Position numbers and translations under genes: made by a program. The notes under the pieces were generated by a model. The model saw nothing but the letters and a program-made list of their open reading frames with translations. It made no database searches and had not been told where the DNA came from. DNA of 4,965 nucleotides. Source: a virus (taxonomy: Duplodnaviria; Heunggongvirae; Uroviricota; Caudoviricetes). Location of the stretch: IMG/VR virus record IMGVR_UViG_2671180680_000009; one strand, written 5' to 3'. Within the stretch, counting starts at the first letter, position 1; each line of letters begins with the position of its first letter. Below, in pieces: positions 1 through 4,965 of the stretch.

Positions 1-61
1 TGACAAAGTCATCGGGCATTATCTGAACATAAAACACTATCAATAAGTTGGAGTCATTACC
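1..61 (+). mobile_element. IS1 3' terminus including the right terminal inverted repeat (partial, continues beyond the window edge)
   Basis: Positions 1-61 match the IS1 right end as I recall it (...TGACAAAGTCATCGGGCATTATCTGAACATAAAACACTATCAATAAGTTGGAGTCATTACC). The reverse complement of 39-61 is GGTAATGACTCCAACTTATTGAT, the IS1 terminal repeat, which mirrors the GGTGATGCTGCCAACTTACTGAT end at 4674. Flanking DNA starts at 62. Confidence 0.85.
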
Positions 62-263
62 CCAATTTTTTACGTACGTAAACCACTAAATGATATTTGC
101 GAGAATGCTACCGAGTATTGAAAACACCACTACAAATACATAAGCAAATCCCAACAAATAACCAACAAATAATTTCCAGTGTTATTTTTAGCCGGTTTAA
201 ATTGAACCTTCAAATTATAGAGCACTTATAAATAACAACTTCACAAATCAAACGAGAAACCAA

Positions 264-290
264 AACTTACATCTTGAAATAATCACATTG
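264..290 (+). promoter_or_regulatory. Candidate OmpR-type box / porin promoter region upstream of the porin gene
   Basis: AACTTACATCTTGAAATAATCACATTG resembles the TTTACATTTTGAAACATCTA-type OmpR boxes of ompC/ompF and lies about 66-90 nt upstream of the porin ATG. Inference from motif resemblance only; no clear -10/-35 pair was found. Confidence 0.2.
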
Positions 291-355
291 ATTAGATGAA
301 TATTTATCGCGCAATGACATCATTTTTTAATAATAGTTCAAAAAAAGGGCTCACG

Positions 356-1438
356 ATGAAAAAATTAACAGTGGCAATTTCTGCTGTAGCTGCATCAGTA
401 CTGATGGCGATGTCTGCTCAGGCAGCTGAAATTTATAATAAAGACAGTAACAAGCTGGATCTGTACGGGAAAGTTAATGCTAAGCACTACTTCTCCTCTA
501 ATGATGCAGATGATGGTGATACTACTTATGCCCGTCTTGGCTTCAAAGGTGAAACCCAAATCAACGATCAACTGACTGGTTTCGGTCAGTGGGAATATGA
601 ATTCAAAGGCAACCGCGCTGAATCTCAAGGTTCCTCCAAAGATAAAACCCGTCTTGCCTTCGCTGGCCTGAAATTCGGTGACTACGGCTCCATCGATTAC
701 GGCCGTAACTACGGTGTAGCATACGACATCGGTGCGTGGACTGACGTCCTGCCAGAATTCGGTGGTGACACTTGGACTCAAACAGATGTGTTCATGACTG
801 GTCGCACCACTGGTGTTGCAACTTATCGTAACAACGACTTCTTTGGTCTGGTTGATGGTCTGAACTTTGCTGCTCAGTATCAGGGTAAAAATGACCGCAC
901 TGACGTAACTGAAGCTAATGGTGATGGTTTCGGTTTCTCCACTACTTATGAGTATGAAGGATTCGGTGTAGGTGCAACCTATGCTAAATCTGACCGCACT
1001 AATAATCAGGTTATCTACGGTAACAACAGCCTGAATGCATCTGGTCAAAATGCTGAAGTATGGGCAGCTGGTCTGAAATATGATGCGAACAACATCTATC
1101 TGGCTACCACCTATTCTGAAACCCAGAACATGACTGTTTTTGGTAATAACCATATTGCCAACAAAGCACAAAACTTCGAAGTAGTTGCACAATATCAGTT
1201 CGACTTCGGTCTGCGTCCGTCCGTTGCTTACCTGCAATCTAAAGGAAAAGACTTGGGTGCGTGGGGTGATCAGGACCTGGTTGAATATATTGATGTAGGT
1301 GCAACCTATTACTTCAACAAAAATATGTCCACTTTTGTTGATTACAAAATCAACCTGATTGATAAGAGCGATTTCACGAAAGCATCTGGCGTTGCTACCG
1401 ATGATATCGTTGCTGTAGGTATGGTTTACCAGTTCTAA
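356..1438 (+). CDS. nmpC: Outer-membrane general porin precursor, OmpC/OmpF/PhoE family, NmpC/Lc-like (prophage moron porin); 360 aa
   Basis: Start chosen at ATG 356 rather than the ORF-track start at 296. It gives a canonical signal peptide [23 protein letters not shown] with an AQA|AEIYNKD cleavage site, and AAGGG sits 6 nt upstream. The mature N-terminus [17 protein letters not shown], the PEFGGD loop-3 motif, the LAFAGLKF and YGRNYG motifs and the C-terminal ...VYQF (terminal Phe) are hallmarks of 16-strand general porins. Its position next to the Q antiterminator matches the nmpC locus of DLP12-like prophages. The ORF is uninterrupted. Confidence 0.9.
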
Positions 1439-1448
1439 TTTGATTACT

Positions 1449-1487
1449 AAAAGATATGTTGCGGGAGGCTTTGCCTCCCCAACATAT
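1449..1487 (-). terminator. Rho-independent terminator on the reverse strand (tR'-like, downstream of Q)
   Basis: ATATGTTG-c-GGGAGGC (1454-1469), loop TTT, GCCTCCC-CAACATAT (1473-1487) form a 15-bp interrupted stem. Read on the reverse strand the hairpin is followed by CTTTTAG (complement of 1447-1453). It lies about 140-180 nt downstream of the Q stop. Confidence 0.45.
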
Positions 1488-1574
1488 AAGTGGCTCCCTC
1501 AAGCCACTTCCTTTAGGAGCACAACCTTGCTTCTAACTATATAAACCTTCTGTTATATATTACCCTTTATTTTT

Positions 1575-1610
1575 GGGGGCGTTGCAACGCCCCATTTTTA
1601 ATAATTTTTA
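1575..1610 (+). terminator. Rho-independent terminator for the porin transcript
   Basis: GC-rich palindrome GGGGCGTTGCAACGCCCC (1576-1593) is followed immediately by ATTTTTAATAATTTTTA on the + strand. On the reverse strand it is followed by an A-run, so it is effective mainly for + strand transcripts. Confidence 0.6.
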
Positions 1611-1626
1611 GTAAACAATTGGCATA

Positions 1627-2010
1627 TTAATTAGAGTTATTAACAACGATATCCATCTCTAACCGGATATCTAATGCCATTAACATCCCTTCAATTATGC
1701 CCTCAGCCTTCTGTAACCTTTTCCCGATATAACCATCAGAGCAGCAATGCTTACCTGCCAGTGACATGAATGTCATACCGACTACATAATAATCTACTAA
1801 TAAATCGTGCAAATCGCTGTTGTTCTTTTTCAGACGGGCCATGCACCCGCAAATAATCATCGCGTCATCGTCACAACATTGCGGGCGAGATTTTACTTTT
1901 GAAGTAATTAATCCCTTAAAACCGGCGGCAATGGACGACCAGGTCACATCTTCATGATTATTAGCCGCCCACGCTCCCCAACGCTCAAGAACCATCTGAA
2001 TATCACGCAT
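1627..2010 (-). CDS. quuD: Late-gene antiterminator Q homolog (DLP12 QuuD-like), 127 aa
   Basis: The reverse-strand ORF begins [14 protein letters not shown] at ATG 2010, preceded by GGAG with a 7-nt spacer (GTGGAGTAAGTTGATG). The ORF-track start at 2025 is a TTG inside that RBS. Cys-rich segments ([20 protein letters not shown]) fit small Q-type antiterminators, and the gene sits at the distal end of the nin operon as Q does in lambdoid phages. Confidence 0.85.
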
Positions 2011-2095
2011 CAACTTACTCCACAAAAATCAGACCAGAACGCCAATTACAAGCAAAAATCAACAAAACAGTATTAGTTGATTGTTATCTCTGACT

Positions 2096-2236
2096 TCATA
2101 CTCCTGCTCCTGTCAGGGTTTTGGCGTAATTCTTCAGTATTCGGTAATCGGTCAAAACAGAACCGGGGAAACGATATAAGCGCAGATGCCCCCAGCGGTG
2201 GCGAAGAAATTCTGCCATATAAAACTCAAACATCAT
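2096..2236 (-). CDS. ylcG: Small nin-region protein YlcG-like, 46 aa
   Basis: Not in the ORF track (below size cut-off). Hand translation of the reverse strand from ATGATG at 2236 gives [46 protein letters not shown], ending at TGA 2096-2098. The start overlaps the rusA stop as ATGA. Call rests on synteny with rusA-ylcG-Q in DLP12 and on size. Confidence 0.6.
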
Positions 2237-2595
2237 TCATTCCCCATTTCGGTGATGGTCAGTTCCAGCCTCCCACCTTTGGTAACAGGCATCTTCACAA
2301 CGCGGTAATCAACGACCTGAGCATCATCCAGCCAGAAACCTGCTTTGGTGAGTGCGTCAAAAGCGGCTTTTTGCAGATTATCCAGGTCACGGCGACGGCG
2401 ATCCGGCATGTGGCACTCAATACGGATTTTCACTGGCATAGCCAGGCCGATATCCAGCATTGCGTTTTTAATGATTCGGGTGACGTTATCGCGGTATGCC
2501 TGCCCTTCTGCGCTGATGTGTGTGCGCCCGCGATTATGGCGGTAATAGCGGTTATTGCTCGGAGGCCAGGGTAATGTGATGCTGTAGGTATTCAC
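2233..2595 (-). CDS. rusA: RusA Holliday-junction resolvase (crossover junction endodeoxyribonuclease), 120 aa
   Basis: 120-aa product [18 protein letters not shown]... with aspartates at predicted positions 70, 72 and 91 (RRRDLDN...WLDDAQ), matching the acidic catalytic residues reported for RusA. The start codon is GTG (2593-2595), overlapping the ybcO stop as GTGA. Confidence 0.9.
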
Positions 2596-2882
2596 GCCTT
2601 AATAACCCCCTCTTTCAGCCAGATAACCTGCGTTCTCGCCATACCTTCCAGCGCGCATTCTTTTGCATACTCAGCATCGACAAAATATGTGCGGCGGTCG
2701 ATTTCGTCGTGACAGGCAGAACATGCAATGGTGGCAATCAGGTCTGGCGGTTTGATACCGGTACCGCACAATCCAGCCAGCCGGATATGTGCCAGTACTG
2801 ACGTTTCAGGATTGCCATTACATACGCCAGGGATTCTTACCTGGCATTCCCGACCACGCGCTGCTTTTCTCAAATCAGCCAT
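2592..2882 (-). CDS. ybcO: YbcO-like nin-region protein (DUF1364 family, cysteine/histidine cluster), 96 aa
   Basis: Start placed at ATG 2880-2882 ([10 protein letters not shown]...), which has a perfect AGGAGG 5 nt upstream (GCAAGGAGGAATCATG). The ORF-track start at 2921 would lack an RBS and overlap ninE extensively. Contains a C..C...H...C...C..C.H cluster. Position between ninE and rusA matches DLP12. Confidence 0.8.
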
Positions 2883-3045
2883 GATTCCTCCTTGCTGCCA
2901 GTCGCAACCATTTTTTATCAACCAGGCTAGCGGTATATCCGAGCAGTGTTGGTATTTCGGATGGCTTCAGCTCAGGCTTACGCTTACGACGATTTGATAC
3001 TCTGTAGATGTGCCCGTTCATGACACGAATAAGCGGTGTAGCCAT
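2875..3045 (-). CDS. ninE: NinE-like small protein, 56 aa
   Basis: Not in the ORF track. Hand translation of the reverse strand gives [62 protein letters not shown] lies 5 nt upstream, the start overlaps the ybcN stop as TAATG, and the 3' end overlaps the ybcO start by 8 nt. Confidence 0.8.
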   Translation of the reverse strand: MATPLIRVMNGHIYRVSNRRKRKPELKPSEIPTLLGYTASLVDKKWLRLAARRNHG

Positions 3046-3500
3046 TACGCCTCCTGCTTATCGCGCAGCTGCTGGTATTCACAGCTCTGCGGAATTGTCA
3101 GGTGGCAGCCGATATTCATCGCCCAGGCTTCGACTTTGCACAGGAAGATGTACATCTCGCCGGTTTCCAGCTCTGACGTATGGCGGAGGGATTGGACGGT
3201 GGTGACCTCGCCGGACACGACATCTACACGGTCTTTGCTTTCGTAGCCGAGATAGGTGTGCTTCATCGCGTCTTTGACCCACTCAGGCGTAGCGAAGGTC
3301 TTGCCGCGGGCGATGAGATATTCGCTGATCTCCGTGTACCACATGTGGCTGAGCGCGTTCTGCGACAGGCTGCGCTTCTCGCGCCACGGCTTAACCTGCA
3401 GGCGTAAGCATTGCCCGGCATCCAGCAATGGCTGAATCTGCTGGCCGATGGCCGCGAAGTTACCGCGATGGAGTTTGATGCCGTCTACTGGCAGAGTCAT
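3045..3500 (-). CDS. ybcN: NinB/Orf-family recombination protein homolog (YbcN-like), 151 aa
   Basis: Reverse ORF MTLPVDGIKLHRGNF... with GGGAGG 4 nt upstream of the ATG (GGGAGGCCGTATG). The internal SLSQNALSHMWYTEIS segment resembles the conserved core of lambda NinB. It is the first gene of the coupled nin operon. Confidence 0.85.
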   Translation of the reverse strand: MTLPVDGIKLHRGNFAAIGQQIQPLLDAGQCLRLQVKPWREKRSLSQNALSHMWYTEISEYLIARGKTFATPEWVKDAMKHTYLGYESKDRVDVVSGEVTTVQSLRHTSELETGEMYIFLCKVEAWAMNIGCHLTIPQSCEYQQLRDKQEA

Positions 3501-3526
3501 ACGGCCTCCCTAACGGAAACCGCAGA

Positions 3527-3556
3527 ATGCAGAAAATCGCAGGTGCATTTCTGCAT
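3527..3556 (-). promoter_or_regulatory. Inverted repeat upstream of ybcN (candidate tR2-like terminator/attenuator or operator)
   Basis: ATGCAGAAA (3527-3535) and TTTCTGCAT (3548-3556) form a 9-bp perfect inverted repeat with a 12-nt spacer, 27 nt upstream of the ybcN start. Read on the reverse strand it is followed by a T-containing tract (TCTGCGGTTTCCGTT) that is only moderately U-rich. Confidence 0.25.
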
Positions 3557-3764
3557 CTGTGACAAGGTGATGAGTTCAGATTGTGGTCGCATTTAAGTCC
3601 CCTTAAATGCGCAGAAGTCACCGGAGTTGTTCAGGCTCCGATGAGAGGATTATGGCGGATTGATTACGATAAATCAAAACTATCTTGAAGCCAAAACAGT
3701 GATCTTCGCTTTAAAAACCTTGTATACTTTCACCTAATCACAGCCAGAACTATGGATCTAACCA

Positions 3765-4142
3765 ATGACCAACAAAGAAAACAAAGATAAATATATTAAC
3801 AAGTTCAAGAAAGAGCTTTCAAAATATATACAACCAACTGCTGGAGTGGACATTCAATTATTTAACTCTAAGGATGGTGGTGGTGTAATTAAAGCCACTT
3901 TGAATAGAAGTGGAAAAAGAAAATCATCTATTGCTGGTAATTTTACTAAATTAGGTGAGGCAATTACCTCGAGTGGGCAGAGGGTTTTTGGTGGTGATCT
4001 ATCAAATGTGAATTTTTACGGAACAAATACGATTTTTGATGGAGATACAATATTTTTAATTAAATCACCTGATTCAGAGGAGTGGTCATCACAAAAAGCT
4101 TCCAAAGACGTAGAGGGCATCGTATTTGGAGGGAAAAAATGA
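3765..4142 (+). CDS. Hypothetical protein, 125 aa, soluble, Lys/Gly-rich, no recognised domain
   Basis: Uninterrupted ORF in a strongly AT-rich island. N-terminus is highly charged (MTNKENKDKYINKFKKELSKY), with no signal peptide or TM segment. Gly-rich stretches (SKDGGGVIK, RVFGGDLSNVNFYGTNTIFDGDTIF, GIVFGGKK). No obvious SD; a possible -10 TATACT at 3723-3728. I do not recognise the family. Confidence 0.5.
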   Translation: MTNKENKDKYINKFKKELSKYIQPTAGVDIQLFNSKDGGGVIKATLNRSGKRKSSIAGNFTKLGEAITSSGQRVFGGDLSNVNFYGTNTIFDGDTIFLIKSPDSEEWSSQKASKDVEGIVFGGKK

Positions 4143-4224
4143 TTAACATTACTACTAAGGATGCACTCAAGTCAGTGGTGAAGTAAGAGATCTAGTAATT
4201 CTTCTTGAAACTGATGGAAAAACG

Positions 4225-4566
4225 GTGTCTGATTATTTGCAGCCAATCCCTCCCAAAAAAGATACACACTGGAGCATGATTTTCATTCCGGTAGCAATTT
4301 ATATACTACTTAATCTTGTATACATTATTGCTCACCCATTATTTCCTGAAAAATATCTAAAAACATCAACATCTATATTTCTATTCATTTCCTTCATATT
4401 AAGTGCAATAGTAGCATATTTTGTTTTCCATAAGCATAAATCTGCCACTCTATCCATATGCAGCTTAGTGTTCTTAGTGTTAATTGTAGGTGCTAACGTA
4501 GGGTTTATCAGTTACAGCGACCTAACACAAAAAGCGACGCAAAAATTAGATAGTTTGTCTAAATAA
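4225..4566 (+). CDS. Hypothetical small integral membrane protein with three predicted TM helices (113 aa from GTG 4225, or 96 aa from ATG 4276)
   Basis: Hydrophobic stretches IFIPVAIYILLNLVYIIAHPLF, SIFLFISFILSAIVAYFVF and LSICSLVFLVLIVGANVGFISY are separated by short charged loops. Same strand and composition as the upstream ORF, 82 nt downstream of it. Start is uncertain: GTG 4225 has a weak GGA 6 nt upstream, and the first in-frame ATG is at 4276. A hairpin GCCATGC-7nt-GCATGGC (4574-4594) follows the stop. Confidence 0.5.
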   Translation: MSDYLQPIPPKKDTHWSMIFIPVAIYILLNLVYIIAHPLFPEKYLKTSTSIFLFISFILSAIVAYFVFHKHKSATLSICSLVFLVLIVGANVGFISYSDLTQKATQKLDSLSK

Positions 4567-4673
4567 TTATGTTGCCATGCGAAGTATGCATGGCTGCATG
4601 TCTGCCTTCCATTTAAAATGGGCTAAGACCTATAACCCTAAATATTATTCTTTATTATCTTCTTTACCACTTC

Positions 4674-4904
4674 GGTGATGCTGCCAACTTACTGATTTAG
4701 TGTATGATGGTGTTTTTGAGGTGCTCCAGTGGCTTCTGTTTCTATCAGCTGTCCCTCCTGTTCAGCTACTGACGGGGTGGTGCGTAACGGCAAAAGCACT
4801 GCCGGACATCAGCGCTATCTCTGCTCTCACTGCCGTAAAACATGGCAACTGCAGTTCGCTTACACCGCTTCTCAACCCGGTACGCACCAGAAAATCATTG
4901 ATAT
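4674..4904 (+). mobile_element. IS1 5' portion (left terminal inverted repeat plus start of insA), truncated at about IS1 coordinate 231
   Basis: GGTGATGCTGCCAACTTACTGATTTAGTGTATGATGG... matches the IS1 left end as I recall it. It is in the same orientation as the IS1 tail at 1-61. Similarity stops abruptly after ...CACCAGAAAATCATTGATAT (4904). Confidence 0.9.
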
Positions 4905-4932
4905 TGTCAGCGCCAGTGATATAAGACGGTAA
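4729..4932 (+). pseudogene. insA: insA remnant: first ~58 codons of IS1 InsA followed by 9 unrelated codons and a stop
   Basis: [58 protein letters not shown] matches InsA as I recall it (with one substitution, A for T in QLQF[T/A]YTAS), then diverges to IVSASDIRR-stop where InsA should continue MAMNGVGCRA. No insB-encoding sequence follows within the window. Confidence 0.8.
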
Positions 4933-4965
4933 TTCGCCATTTGGATTGTCCGCTCCACCCAACAT

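What the first reader, a model, noticed from the sequence alone, without database searches (positions are those of the whole stretch)
1..4904. Prophage remnant and cargo bracketed by two directly oriented IS1 copies (composite-transposon-like unit)
The window opens with the last 61 bp of an IS1 and, 4.6 kb later, reaches the first 231 bp of another IS1 in the same orientation. Direct IS1 pairs can mobilise or delete intervening DNA (as in Tn9-type composites) and mediate cointegrate or deletion formation. Everything between them, including the intact porin, the Q/nin genes and the AT-rich cassette, is therefore potentially mobilisable or the residue of IS1-mediated deletions that removed the prophage lysis and replication modules.
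Basis: partly seen in the sequence, partly recalled or inferred. Interest (0 to 1): 0.55.

Follow-up and report, generated by a model that had tools for sequence, protein, structure and literature searches.

The report
IS1-bracketed piece of decaying prophage
A 4.6-kb slice of a defective lambda-like prophage lies between two same-direction IS1 copies that arrived by separate events, so this is ordinary insertion-sequence-driven prophage decay of the kind seen in Shigella-type genomes, not a transposon that has moved.

Summary
Window 1-61 is the last 61 bp of IS1 (61/61 to K-12 IS1A). Window 4674-4904 is the first 231 bp of IS1 (229/231) on the same strand.

Near-identical complete chromosomes (99.98%) supply the missing flanks.
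- The left IS1 is a simple insertion with an 8-bp target duplication (CCAATTTT) between the holin gene and the porin gene. The lysis genes are still present beyond it.
- The right IS1 has no target duplication. It marks a deletion of about 9 kb that removed P, O, immunity and recombination genes.
- The right IS1's far side carries a 3.6-kb inversion made with a third, inverted IS1. A 9-bp duplication in cscK is split between those two copies.
- The right IS1 does not simply run off the window. A 2.1-kb IS21 is inserted at its nt 231, and window 4905-4965 is the IS21 end.

No duplication flanks the pair as a unit. The interior is colinear with the prophage outside it. The unit occurs nowhere else in 5,426 E. 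coli genomes or 72,556 plasmids. It is therefore not a composite transposon that has moved.

Verdict: real, ordinary, already known in kind.

The parts
1..61 (+). Right end (nt 708-768, including the right inverted repeat) of the left IS1 copy
   Evidence: 61/61 identity to K-12 IS1A. In L005, L007 and L014 the full 768/769-bp copy is present.
62..69 (.). CCAATTTT, the right-hand copy of the 8-bp target-site duplication of the left IS1
   Evidence: In L005 the same 8-mer lies immediately before the left inverted repeat. The empty site CATAACCAATTTTTTACG is present in L001, L002, L006, L008, L009 and L011-L013.
237..238 (.). Junction of a 96-bp deletion private to this window, 118 bp upstream of the porin ATG
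   Evidence: All 12 related loci checked carry 96 extra bases here (GCCGTTAATAT...AGAGATCT).
356..1438 (+). Intact prophage-borne porin (OmpC/NmpC/Lc-type, 360 aa)
   Evidence: Pfam Porin_1, E=3e-153. 100% protein identity to WP_000737275.1 of ETEC1747.
1576..1603 (+). Terminator-like hairpin with T run downstream of the porin gene
   Evidence: Consensus scan only.
1627..2010 (-). Late antiterminator Q (quuD)
   Evidence: Pfam Phage_antitermQ, E=3.5e-53. Protein identical to the ETEC1747 quuD product.
2096..2236 (-). ylcG
   Evidence: Annotated ylcG in L001. phrog_2705. One amino-acid difference from ETEC1747.
2233..2595 (-). rusA Holliday-junction resolvase
   Evidence: Pfam RusA, E=1.6e-22. 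Protein identical to ETEC1747.
2592..2882 (-). ybcO (DUF1364)
   Evidence: Pfam YbcO, E=1.6e-42.
2875..3045 (-). ninE
   Evidence: Pfam NinE, E=4e-5, just below the curated cut-off. Annotated NinE family in L001.
3045..3500 (-). ybcN / NinB-like
   Evidence: Pfam NinB, E=3.6e-5. Annotated YbcN family in L001.
3765..4142 (+). AT-rich accessory ORF1 (125 aa), function unknown
   Evidence: phrog_18061, function unknown. No Pfam or PADLOC hit. GC 33-36%.
4139..4566 (+). AT-rich accessory ORF2, a pseudogene here: a 1-bp deletion (one G) between 4162 and 4163 breaks a 142-aa membrane-protein ORF
   Evidence: Alignment to the intact allele in L001 and L010. The frameshift allele is shared with L005, L007 and L014. 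The intact form is phrog_16940.
4645..4673 (-). Last 29 nt (..SGKEDNKE*) of replication gene P, all that remains of the replication module
   Evidence: Identical to the 3' end of the P gene in L001 at 13681-13709.
4674..4904 (+). Left end (nt 1-231) of the right IS1 copy, with truncated insA
   Evidence: 229/231 identity to IS1A. InsA zinc ribbon. SNP at 4858 is private to the window.
4901..4904 (.). ATAT, the 4-bp target duplication made by IS21 inside IS1
   Evidence: In L005, IS1 nt 1-231 and nt 228-769 flank the 2,130-bp IS21, giving a 4-bp overlap.
4905..4965 (+). Left terminus of an IS21 element (istA/istB follow in related genomes)
   Evidence: The window stretch from about 4900 to 4965 (query positions 21-86 of the 4880-4965 query) matches at 100% across the tssC/IS21 boundary in FDAARGOS_943. 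It continues into istA/istB in L005, L007 and L014.

Best explanation
The window is a slice of a defective DLP12-like lambdoid prophage in an IS-laden Shigella-type chromosome. The two direct IS1 copies are independent scars and do not form a transposon. Shown steps: (1) The left IS1 transposed into the intergenic region between the holin gene essD and the porin gene, duplicating 8 bp and deleting nothing. (2) The right IS1 marks the edge of a deletion of about 9 kb. The deletion runs from 29 nt inside the 3' end of P, through O, cII/cro/cI, N, gam/bet/exo and a TraR-family gene, to a point near the torI end of the prophage beside the csc sucrose locus. (3) A third IS1, in inverted orientation, had inserted into cscK with a 9-bp duplication (CGCTTGCAG). 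Exchange between it and the right IS1 inverted the 3.57-kb cscK'-cscB-torI segment, so the two copies of the duplication are now split between the two elements. (4) IS21 then inserted into the right IS1 at nt 231 with a 4-bp ATAT duplication, breaking its transposase genes. Inferred steps: the deletion came about either by IS1 intramolecular transposition (adjacent deletion) or by recombination between two direct IS1 copies. The order of events is not fixed by the data, except that the IS21 insertion followed the arrival of the right IS1. The source organism is inferred to be Shigella, probably S. sonnei. The interior genes (porin, Q, ylcG, rusA, ybcO, ninE, ybcN, ORF1) remain intact because they lie between the scars, not because they are transposon cargo.
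For: IS1 identity and direct orientation. Four chromosomes (L005 = CP104423.1, L007 = CP049179.1, L014, and partly L010) match the window at 99.85-99.98% and carry the same junction sequences. Left IS1: 8-bp duplication, empty sites in 8 related prophages, and lysis genes retained beyond it. Right IS1: flanks TACCACTTC and CGCTTGCAG differ. Its right flank lies in cscK, and the same 9-mer in reverse complement abuts the left inverted repeat of the third, inverted IS1. In the unrearranged E. coli CEA224S the two cscK pieces overlap by exactly these 9 bp. After the inversion is undone, gene order and strands match the CEA224S prophage at the csc/torI site, except for the missing P-to-TraR block of about 9 kb. 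IS21: 2,130 bp, TGTCA termini, 4-bp duplication, istA/istB. The uninterrupted, 99.4% identical prophage in ETEC1747 shows essD to the left and P to the right of the window's interior. Literature: Shigella reference chromosomes carry 229-348 IS copies, the authors judge it likely that much gene loss was IS-mediated, and IS21 is on the S. sonnei 53G IS list but not the S. flexneri list (PMC7373316).
Against: The window holds only 61 bp of the left IS1 and none of the far side of the right one, so everything beyond its ends is read from relatives and not from the source genome. The source also differs from those relatives by a 96-bp deletion and one SNP. No single reference carries both the window-type nin/P region and the csc/torI attachment end. 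The deletion size is therefore estimated from two mosaic relatives (ETEC1747 at icd, CEA224S at csc/torI). The organism was not identified by any tool. L010 appears to have collapsed IS copies and was given little weight.
Confidence: 0.88

Rival explanations
1. A Tn9-type composite transposon. On this reading the two direct IS1 copies and the DNA between them transposed into this site as one unit, or still do so.
For: There are two IS1 copies in direct orientation 4.6 kb apart. In L005, L007 and L014 the outer inverted repeats are intact. In L007 the left copy has open insA and insB frames with the A6C frameshift motif. Established knowledge: IS1 pairs can mobilise intervening DNA, as in Tn9 (from my own knowledge, not tested here).
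Against: No common target duplication flanks the unit: CCAATTTT at the outer left, CGCTTGCAG at the outer right. The left IS1 has its own 8-bp duplication on both of its sides, which marks a solo insertion. The interior is colinear with the lysis genes outside the left IS1, exactly as in uninterrupted prophages. Among 5,426 E. coli genomes, the 30 best-ranked full-length matches listed all show the prophage gene set, and no place covers both IS1 junctions. No plasmid among 72,556 records holds 80% or more of the interior. The right IS1 is split by IS21, which would make the composite 8.4 kb long with only one working transposase source.
Confidence: 0.04
2. The bracket is an assembly artefact, that is, a short-read contig misjoined at repeats.
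For: The window carries exactly 61 bp of repeat element at each end (IS1 at the left, IS21 at the right) and has an odd length of 4,965 bp. That looks like a whole short-read contig ending in repeats (my inference). In one search, about half of the collection blocks carrying the 125-aa protein (ORF1) have a longest contig of 2-5 kb.
Against: All four junction sequences inside the window recur exactly in three multi-megabase chromosomes (L005, L007, L014), which also supply the complete IS copies.
Confidence: 0.02
3. The right-hand junction arose only by large-scale homologous recombination between distant IS1 copies, joining two unrelated prophage regions. On this reading there was no local deletion within a single prophage.
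For: The closest full-length relative of the window's interior (ETEC1747, 99.4%) is integrated next to icd, not at csc/torI. Shigella chromosomes are heavily rearranged between IS copies (PMC8072062 abstract and PMC7373316).
Against: E. coli CEA224S has a complete lambdoid prophage at the csc/torI site with the same gene order and strands: nohD, lysis genes, porin, Q, rusA, nin, P, O, early genes, TraR, torI, cscB. A single deletion within one such prophage therefore explains the junction without any long-range event. The left flank in L005 (nohD, ylcI, ybcV, lysis genes) also matches that layout.
Confidence: 0.06

Closest known systems
Cryptic lambdoid prophage DLP12 of E. coli K-12 (quuD-nmpC-essD-rrrD-rzpD region, with nmpC interrupted by IS5)
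   Same: The gene set and order are the same: ybcN, ninE, ybcO, rusA, ylcG, quuD, a convergent porin gene, then the lysis genes. RefSeq gives the relatives the same gene names. Both are defective prophages hit by insertion sequences.
   Different: Here the porin gene is intact. The IS elements are IS1 (twice) and IS21, not IS5. The relatives place this prophage at the csc/torI (argW-side) locus or at icd. The K-12 DLP12 layout is recalled from my own knowledge and was not fetched here.
Tn9-type IS1 composite transposons
   Same: Two IS1 copies in direct orientation bracket a few kilobases of non-IS DNA.
   Different: There is no unit-level target duplication, and each IS1 has its own separate history. 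The interior is resident prophage DNA. The unit is not found in any second context, and one IS1 is disrupted by IS21.
IS-mediated genome degradation in Shigella (Hawkey et al. 2020, PMC7373316)
   Same: IS1 expansion, IS-bounded deletions and inversions, and IS elements nested in other IS elements. IS21 is among the 12 IS listed for S. sonnei 53G.
   Different: Nothing differs in kind. This is one locus-level example. This particular locus is not discussed in the passages I read.
Inducible lambdoid phages PhiR68_2, PhiR34_1 and PhiR70_1 from the ECOR collection
   Same: They share the porin-Q-rusA-ninE-ybcN module at 94-95% identity over window 62-3679.
   Different: They lack the AT-rich two-ORF cassette (window about 3680-4640) and carry no IS1.

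Membership tests
IS1 (both terminal fragments) | Near-identity to a curated IS1, including the terminal inverted repeat | tested here: met
   61/61 and 229/231 identity to the annotated IS1A of K-12 MG1655, ending and starting at the inverted repeats.
IS1 (both terminal fragments) | InsA zinc-ribbon reading frame at the left end | tested here: met
   PF03811, E=1e-21, for the ORF at 4729-4932.
IS1 composite transposon (Tn9-like) | Two IS1 copies flanking the segment with intact outer inverted repeats | tested here: met
   Direct orientation is shown in the window. The outer inverted repeats are seen only in relatives L005, L007 and L014, so this could not be tested on the window itself.
IS1 composite transposon (Tn9-like) | One target-site duplication flanking the whole unit | tested here: not met
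   The outer flanks are CCAATTTT and CGCTTGCAG. The left IS1 has its own duplication on both of its sides.
IS1 composite transposon (Tn9-like) | The unit is found in more than one genomic or plasmid context, or its interior is foreign to its flanks | tested here: not met
   The 30 best-ranked full-length matches among 5,426 E. coli genomes show the prophage gene set and none covers both IS1 junctions. No plasmid holds 80% or more of the interior. The interior is colinear with the lysis genes outside it.
IS1 composite transposon (Tn9-like) | At least one IS1 copy encodes a working transposase | tested here: inconclusive
   The left copy in L007 has open insA and insB frames, but activity was not tested and the source strain's copy is not in the window. 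The right copy is split by IS21.
Simple IS1 insertion (left copy) | An 8-9 bp direct duplication of the target, with an empty site in relatives | tested here: met
   CCAATTTT lies on both sides in L005. The empty site is present in 8 related loci.
IS1-associated deletion (right copy) | The IS lacks a target duplication, and its two flanks are colinear with a reference but separated there by the missing DNA | tested here: met
   The flanks differ. After the inversion is undone, the flanks correspond to the 3' end of P and a point 63 bp beyond the TraR-family gene, about 9 kb apart in ETEC1747 and CEA224S. The mechanism (transposase-mediated or homologous recombination) is not distinguishable.
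IS-mediated inversion (right IS1 and third IS1) | Inverted IS copies, with one target duplication split between them in inverted orientation | tested here: met
   CGCTTGCAG lies at the right inverted repeat of the right IS1, and its reverse complement lies at the left inverted repeat of the third IS1. The two cscK pieces overlap by these 9 bp in L016.
IS21 family | istA and istB genes, TG...CA termini and a short target duplication | tested here: met
   2,130 bp; TGTCAGCGCC... and ...GGCGTTGACA termini; istA 390 aa and istB 265 aa; 4-bp ATAT duplication in L005. The window holds only the first 61 bp.

The most novel reading that the evidence does not exclude
The pair may still work as an 8.4-kb IS1 composite or translocatable unit. 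In relatives the outer inverted repeats are intact and the left IS1 transposase frames are open. Such a unit could carry an intact phage porin gene, Q and rusA to plasmids, or be looped out by IS1-IS1 recombination. The IS1 insertion about 300 bp upstream of the porin gene, together with the private 96-bp upstream deletion, may also alter porin expression in this lineage.
Probability: 0.05. Interest if true: 0.35.

Novelty: already known. Interest (0 to 1): 0.12.

Why it matters
It matters little beyond bookkeeping. The locus is a clean worked example of how IS1 (with IS21) dismantles a prophage in a Shigella-type genome. The example shows one simple insertion, one IS-bounded deletion that removed replication and immunity genes, one IS-IS inversion and one IS nested in another IS. 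It also shows that two IS copies around a segment do not make a transposon: each end has to be checked for its own target duplication. The practical consequence is that the prophage cannot replicate or excise, yet it keeps an intact porin, Q, RusA and, in relatives, the lysis genes.

Tried and rejected
- An exact-pattern scan of the GTDB species representatives with the window's own left junction found nothing. The source genome is therefore not among them, and no organism title was obtained.
- A look-up of the truncated InsA fusion ORF (4729-4932) as an exact protein found no record.
- A literature search for accessions CP104423, CP049179, CP029794 and CP125938 found nothing, so the organism stays inferred.
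- Sigma-70 promoter scans upstream of the porin gene, with and without the 96-bp segment, gave no sites in either version. The effect of the deletion on expression is therefore untested.
- A PADLOC scan of the two AT-rich ORFs gave no hit. PHROGs returned only families of unknown function.
- I first read L010 as an earlier state without IS21. I rejected this because L010 does contain the IS1-to-IS21 left junction and shows duplicated and missing IS pieces, so it looks like an assembly with collapsed repeats.
- I considered that the second IS1 was truncated by a deletion at 4904. I rejected this because the rest of IS1 (nt 228-769) resumes after the IS21 in L005, L007 and L014.


Full report
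**Observation**

Against the curated IS1A of E. coli K-12 MG1655 (annotated mobile element):
- Window 1-61 equals IS1 nt 708-768 (61/61) and ends in the right inverted repeat.
- Window 4674-4904 equals IS1 nt 1-231 (229/231) on the same strand and starts with the left inverted repeat.
- The ORF at 4729-4932 carries the InsA zinc ribbon.

**What lies between the two IS1 copies**

The 4,612-bp interior encodes:
- an intact 360-aa porin on the + strand;
- on the - strand, quuD (Q), ylcG, rusA, ybcO, ninE and ybcN;
- an AT-rich (33-36% GC) pair of + strand ORFs of unknown function;
- the last 29 nt of replication gene P.

All protein products are identical to those of a 99.4% identical, uninterrupted lambdoid prophage in E. 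coli ETEC1747, with two exceptions. ylcG has one substitution. The second AT-rich ORF is broken by a 1-bp deletion at 4162/4163. In the ETEC1747 prophage the interior is flanked by essD-rrrD-rzpD on the left and by P and O on the right.

IS1 stops at 4904 because a 2,130-bp IS21 (istA, istB) is inserted there.
- Window 4905-4965 is the IS21 left terminus. The stretch from about 4900 to 4965 matches at 100% across the boundary between tssC and an IS21 that interrupts it in another strain.
- In related chromosomes IS1 nt 228-769 resumes after the IS21, which gives a 4-bp ATAT duplication.

**Flanks, read from relatives**

An exact-protein look-up with the 125-aa ORF returned multi-megabase chromosomes. 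Three of them (L005 = CP104423.1, L007 = CP049179.1, L014) match the window at 99.85-99.98% and contain every junction sequence of the window. A fourth, L010, matches too but seems to have collapsed IS copies. In these three chromosomes:

1. The left IS1 is complete (768/769 bp). CCAATTTT sits on both of its sides, and eight related prophages show the empty site CATAACCAATTTTTTACG. The holin, lysozyme and Rz genes lie directly beyond it. It is a simple insertion, and the lysis module has not been lost.
2. The right IS1 has different flanks, TACCACTTC and CGCTTGCAG. Its far flank lies in the sucrose kinase gene cscK and is followed by cscB and torI.
3. A third IS1 lies 3.57 kb further on in inverted orientation. 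It has the reverse complement of the same 9-mer at its left inverted repeat. In unrearranged E. coli CEA224S the two cscK pieces overlap by exactly these 9 bp. One IS1 therefore inserted into cscK with a normal 9-bp duplication, and the segment between the two inverted IS1 copies was later flipped.

Undoing the flip gives this order and these strands: lysis genes (-), porin (+), Q through ybcN (-), two ORFs (+), the P remnant (-), IS1, hypothetical (-), hypothetical (+), torI (+), cscB (-), cscK (-). This is the layout of the complete lambdoid prophage at the csc/torI site of CEA224S, apart from the missing block from P through O, cII, cro, cI, N, gam/bet/exo and a TraR-family gene. The missing block is about 9 kb measured on either CEA224S or ETEC1747. 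The right IS1 is thus the scar of an IS1-associated deletion that removed the replication, immunity and recombination genes. Sequence cannot tell whether this was a transposase-mediated adjacent deletion or recombination between two direct IS1 copies.

**Composite-transposon test**

A composite that had moved as a unit should meet three conditions. None holds.
- It should have one duplication at its outer ends. The outer flanks differ, and the left IS1 has its own duplication.
- Its interior should be foreign to its flanks. Instead the interior continues the prophage found outside the left IS1.
- It should occur in other contexts. The 30 best-ranked full-length matches listed among 5,426 complete E. 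coli genomes all show the prophage gene set, and no place covers both IS1 junctions. No plasmid among 72,556 holds 80% or more of the interior.

One IS1 is also disrupted by IS21. Residual capacity to transpose, or to lose the interior by IS1-IS1 recombination, cannot be ruled out from sequence, but nothing indicates that either has happened.

**Origin**

No tool named the organism. A Shigella-type genome, probably S. sonnei, is suggested by three things:
- the density of IS1, IS21, IS3-family and IS4 elements within 20 kb;
- the 4.8-Mb chromosomes;
- IS21 being on the IS list for S. sonnei 53G but not for S. flexneri (PMC7373316).

This is an inference. The same paper reports 229-348 IS copies per Shigella reference chromosome and judges it likely that much of the gene loss was IS-mediated. 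That is the known phenomenon this locus exemplifies.

**Verdict**

The feature is real and accurately described. It is ordinary: IS-driven decay of a cryptic prophage, not a mobile composite element. Interest is low, and the kind is already known.

Noticed in passing
window 237/238: The window lacks 96 bp (GCCGTTAATAT...AGAGATCT) that all 12 related loci checked carry. The junction is 118 bp upstream of the porin start codon. Only 1 bp of microhomology lies at the junction. The deletion could affect porin regulation.
   Followed up: partly
window 4139-4566 (frameshift at 4162/4163): The second AT-rich ORF encodes a 142-aa predicted membrane protein (phrog_16940) and is intact in E. coli relatives. 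Here, and in L005, L007 and L014, it is broken by loss of one G.
   Followed up: yes
window 3680-4640: An AT-rich (33-36% GC) two-ORF cassette sits on the strand opposite to the nin genes, between ybcN and P. It is absent from the otherwise 95% identical inducible phages PhiR68_2, PhiR34_1 and PhiR70_1. It has no Pfam or PADLOC match, which suggests an accessory (moron-type) insert of unknown function.
   Followed up: partly
window 4901-4965; L004 4020-4030 and 6150-6160; L003 2995-3010: IS21 hit IS1 independently at almost the same spot in a chicken E. coli plasmid (pVTB432v-2). There the duplication is TATG at IS1 nt 229-232, against ATAT at nt 228-231 here. An IS21 in tssC of another strain also abuts ATAT. 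This suggests a target preference of IS21 for this short AT motif.
   Followed up: partly
L005 13813-18149 (outside the window): A 3.57-kb segment (part of cscK, cscB, two hypothetical genes, torI) is inverted between two inverted IS1 copies. The 9-bp cscK target duplication CGCTTGCAG is split between them. What remains of cscK carries a further IS3-family insertion.
   Followed up: yes
L005 5433-6201: The left IS1 of L005 is 769 bp. It has seven A's in place of the A6C frameshift motif, so insA and insB are fused into one 232-aa ORF. L007 and L014 have 768 bp. This is either a constitutive transposase allele or a homopolymer error in that assembly.
   Followed up: no
window 1-61 and 4905-4965: Both ends of the window carry exactly 61 bp of a repeated element (IS1 at the left, IS21 at the right), and the window length is not a round number. 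This suggests the window is a whole short-read contig that ended in repeats. In one search, about half of the collection blocks holding ORF1 have a longest contig of 2-5 kb, as expected if thousands of short-read assemblies break at these IS copies.
   Followed up: no
L010 5738-6201 and 10911-11732: The IS copies in chromosome CP029794.1 have internal pieces missing or duplicated, and the contig is 4.54 Mb against 4.8 Mb for its relatives. This looks like an assembly with collapsed repeats, so it should not be used to infer intermediate evolutionary states.
   Followed up: partly
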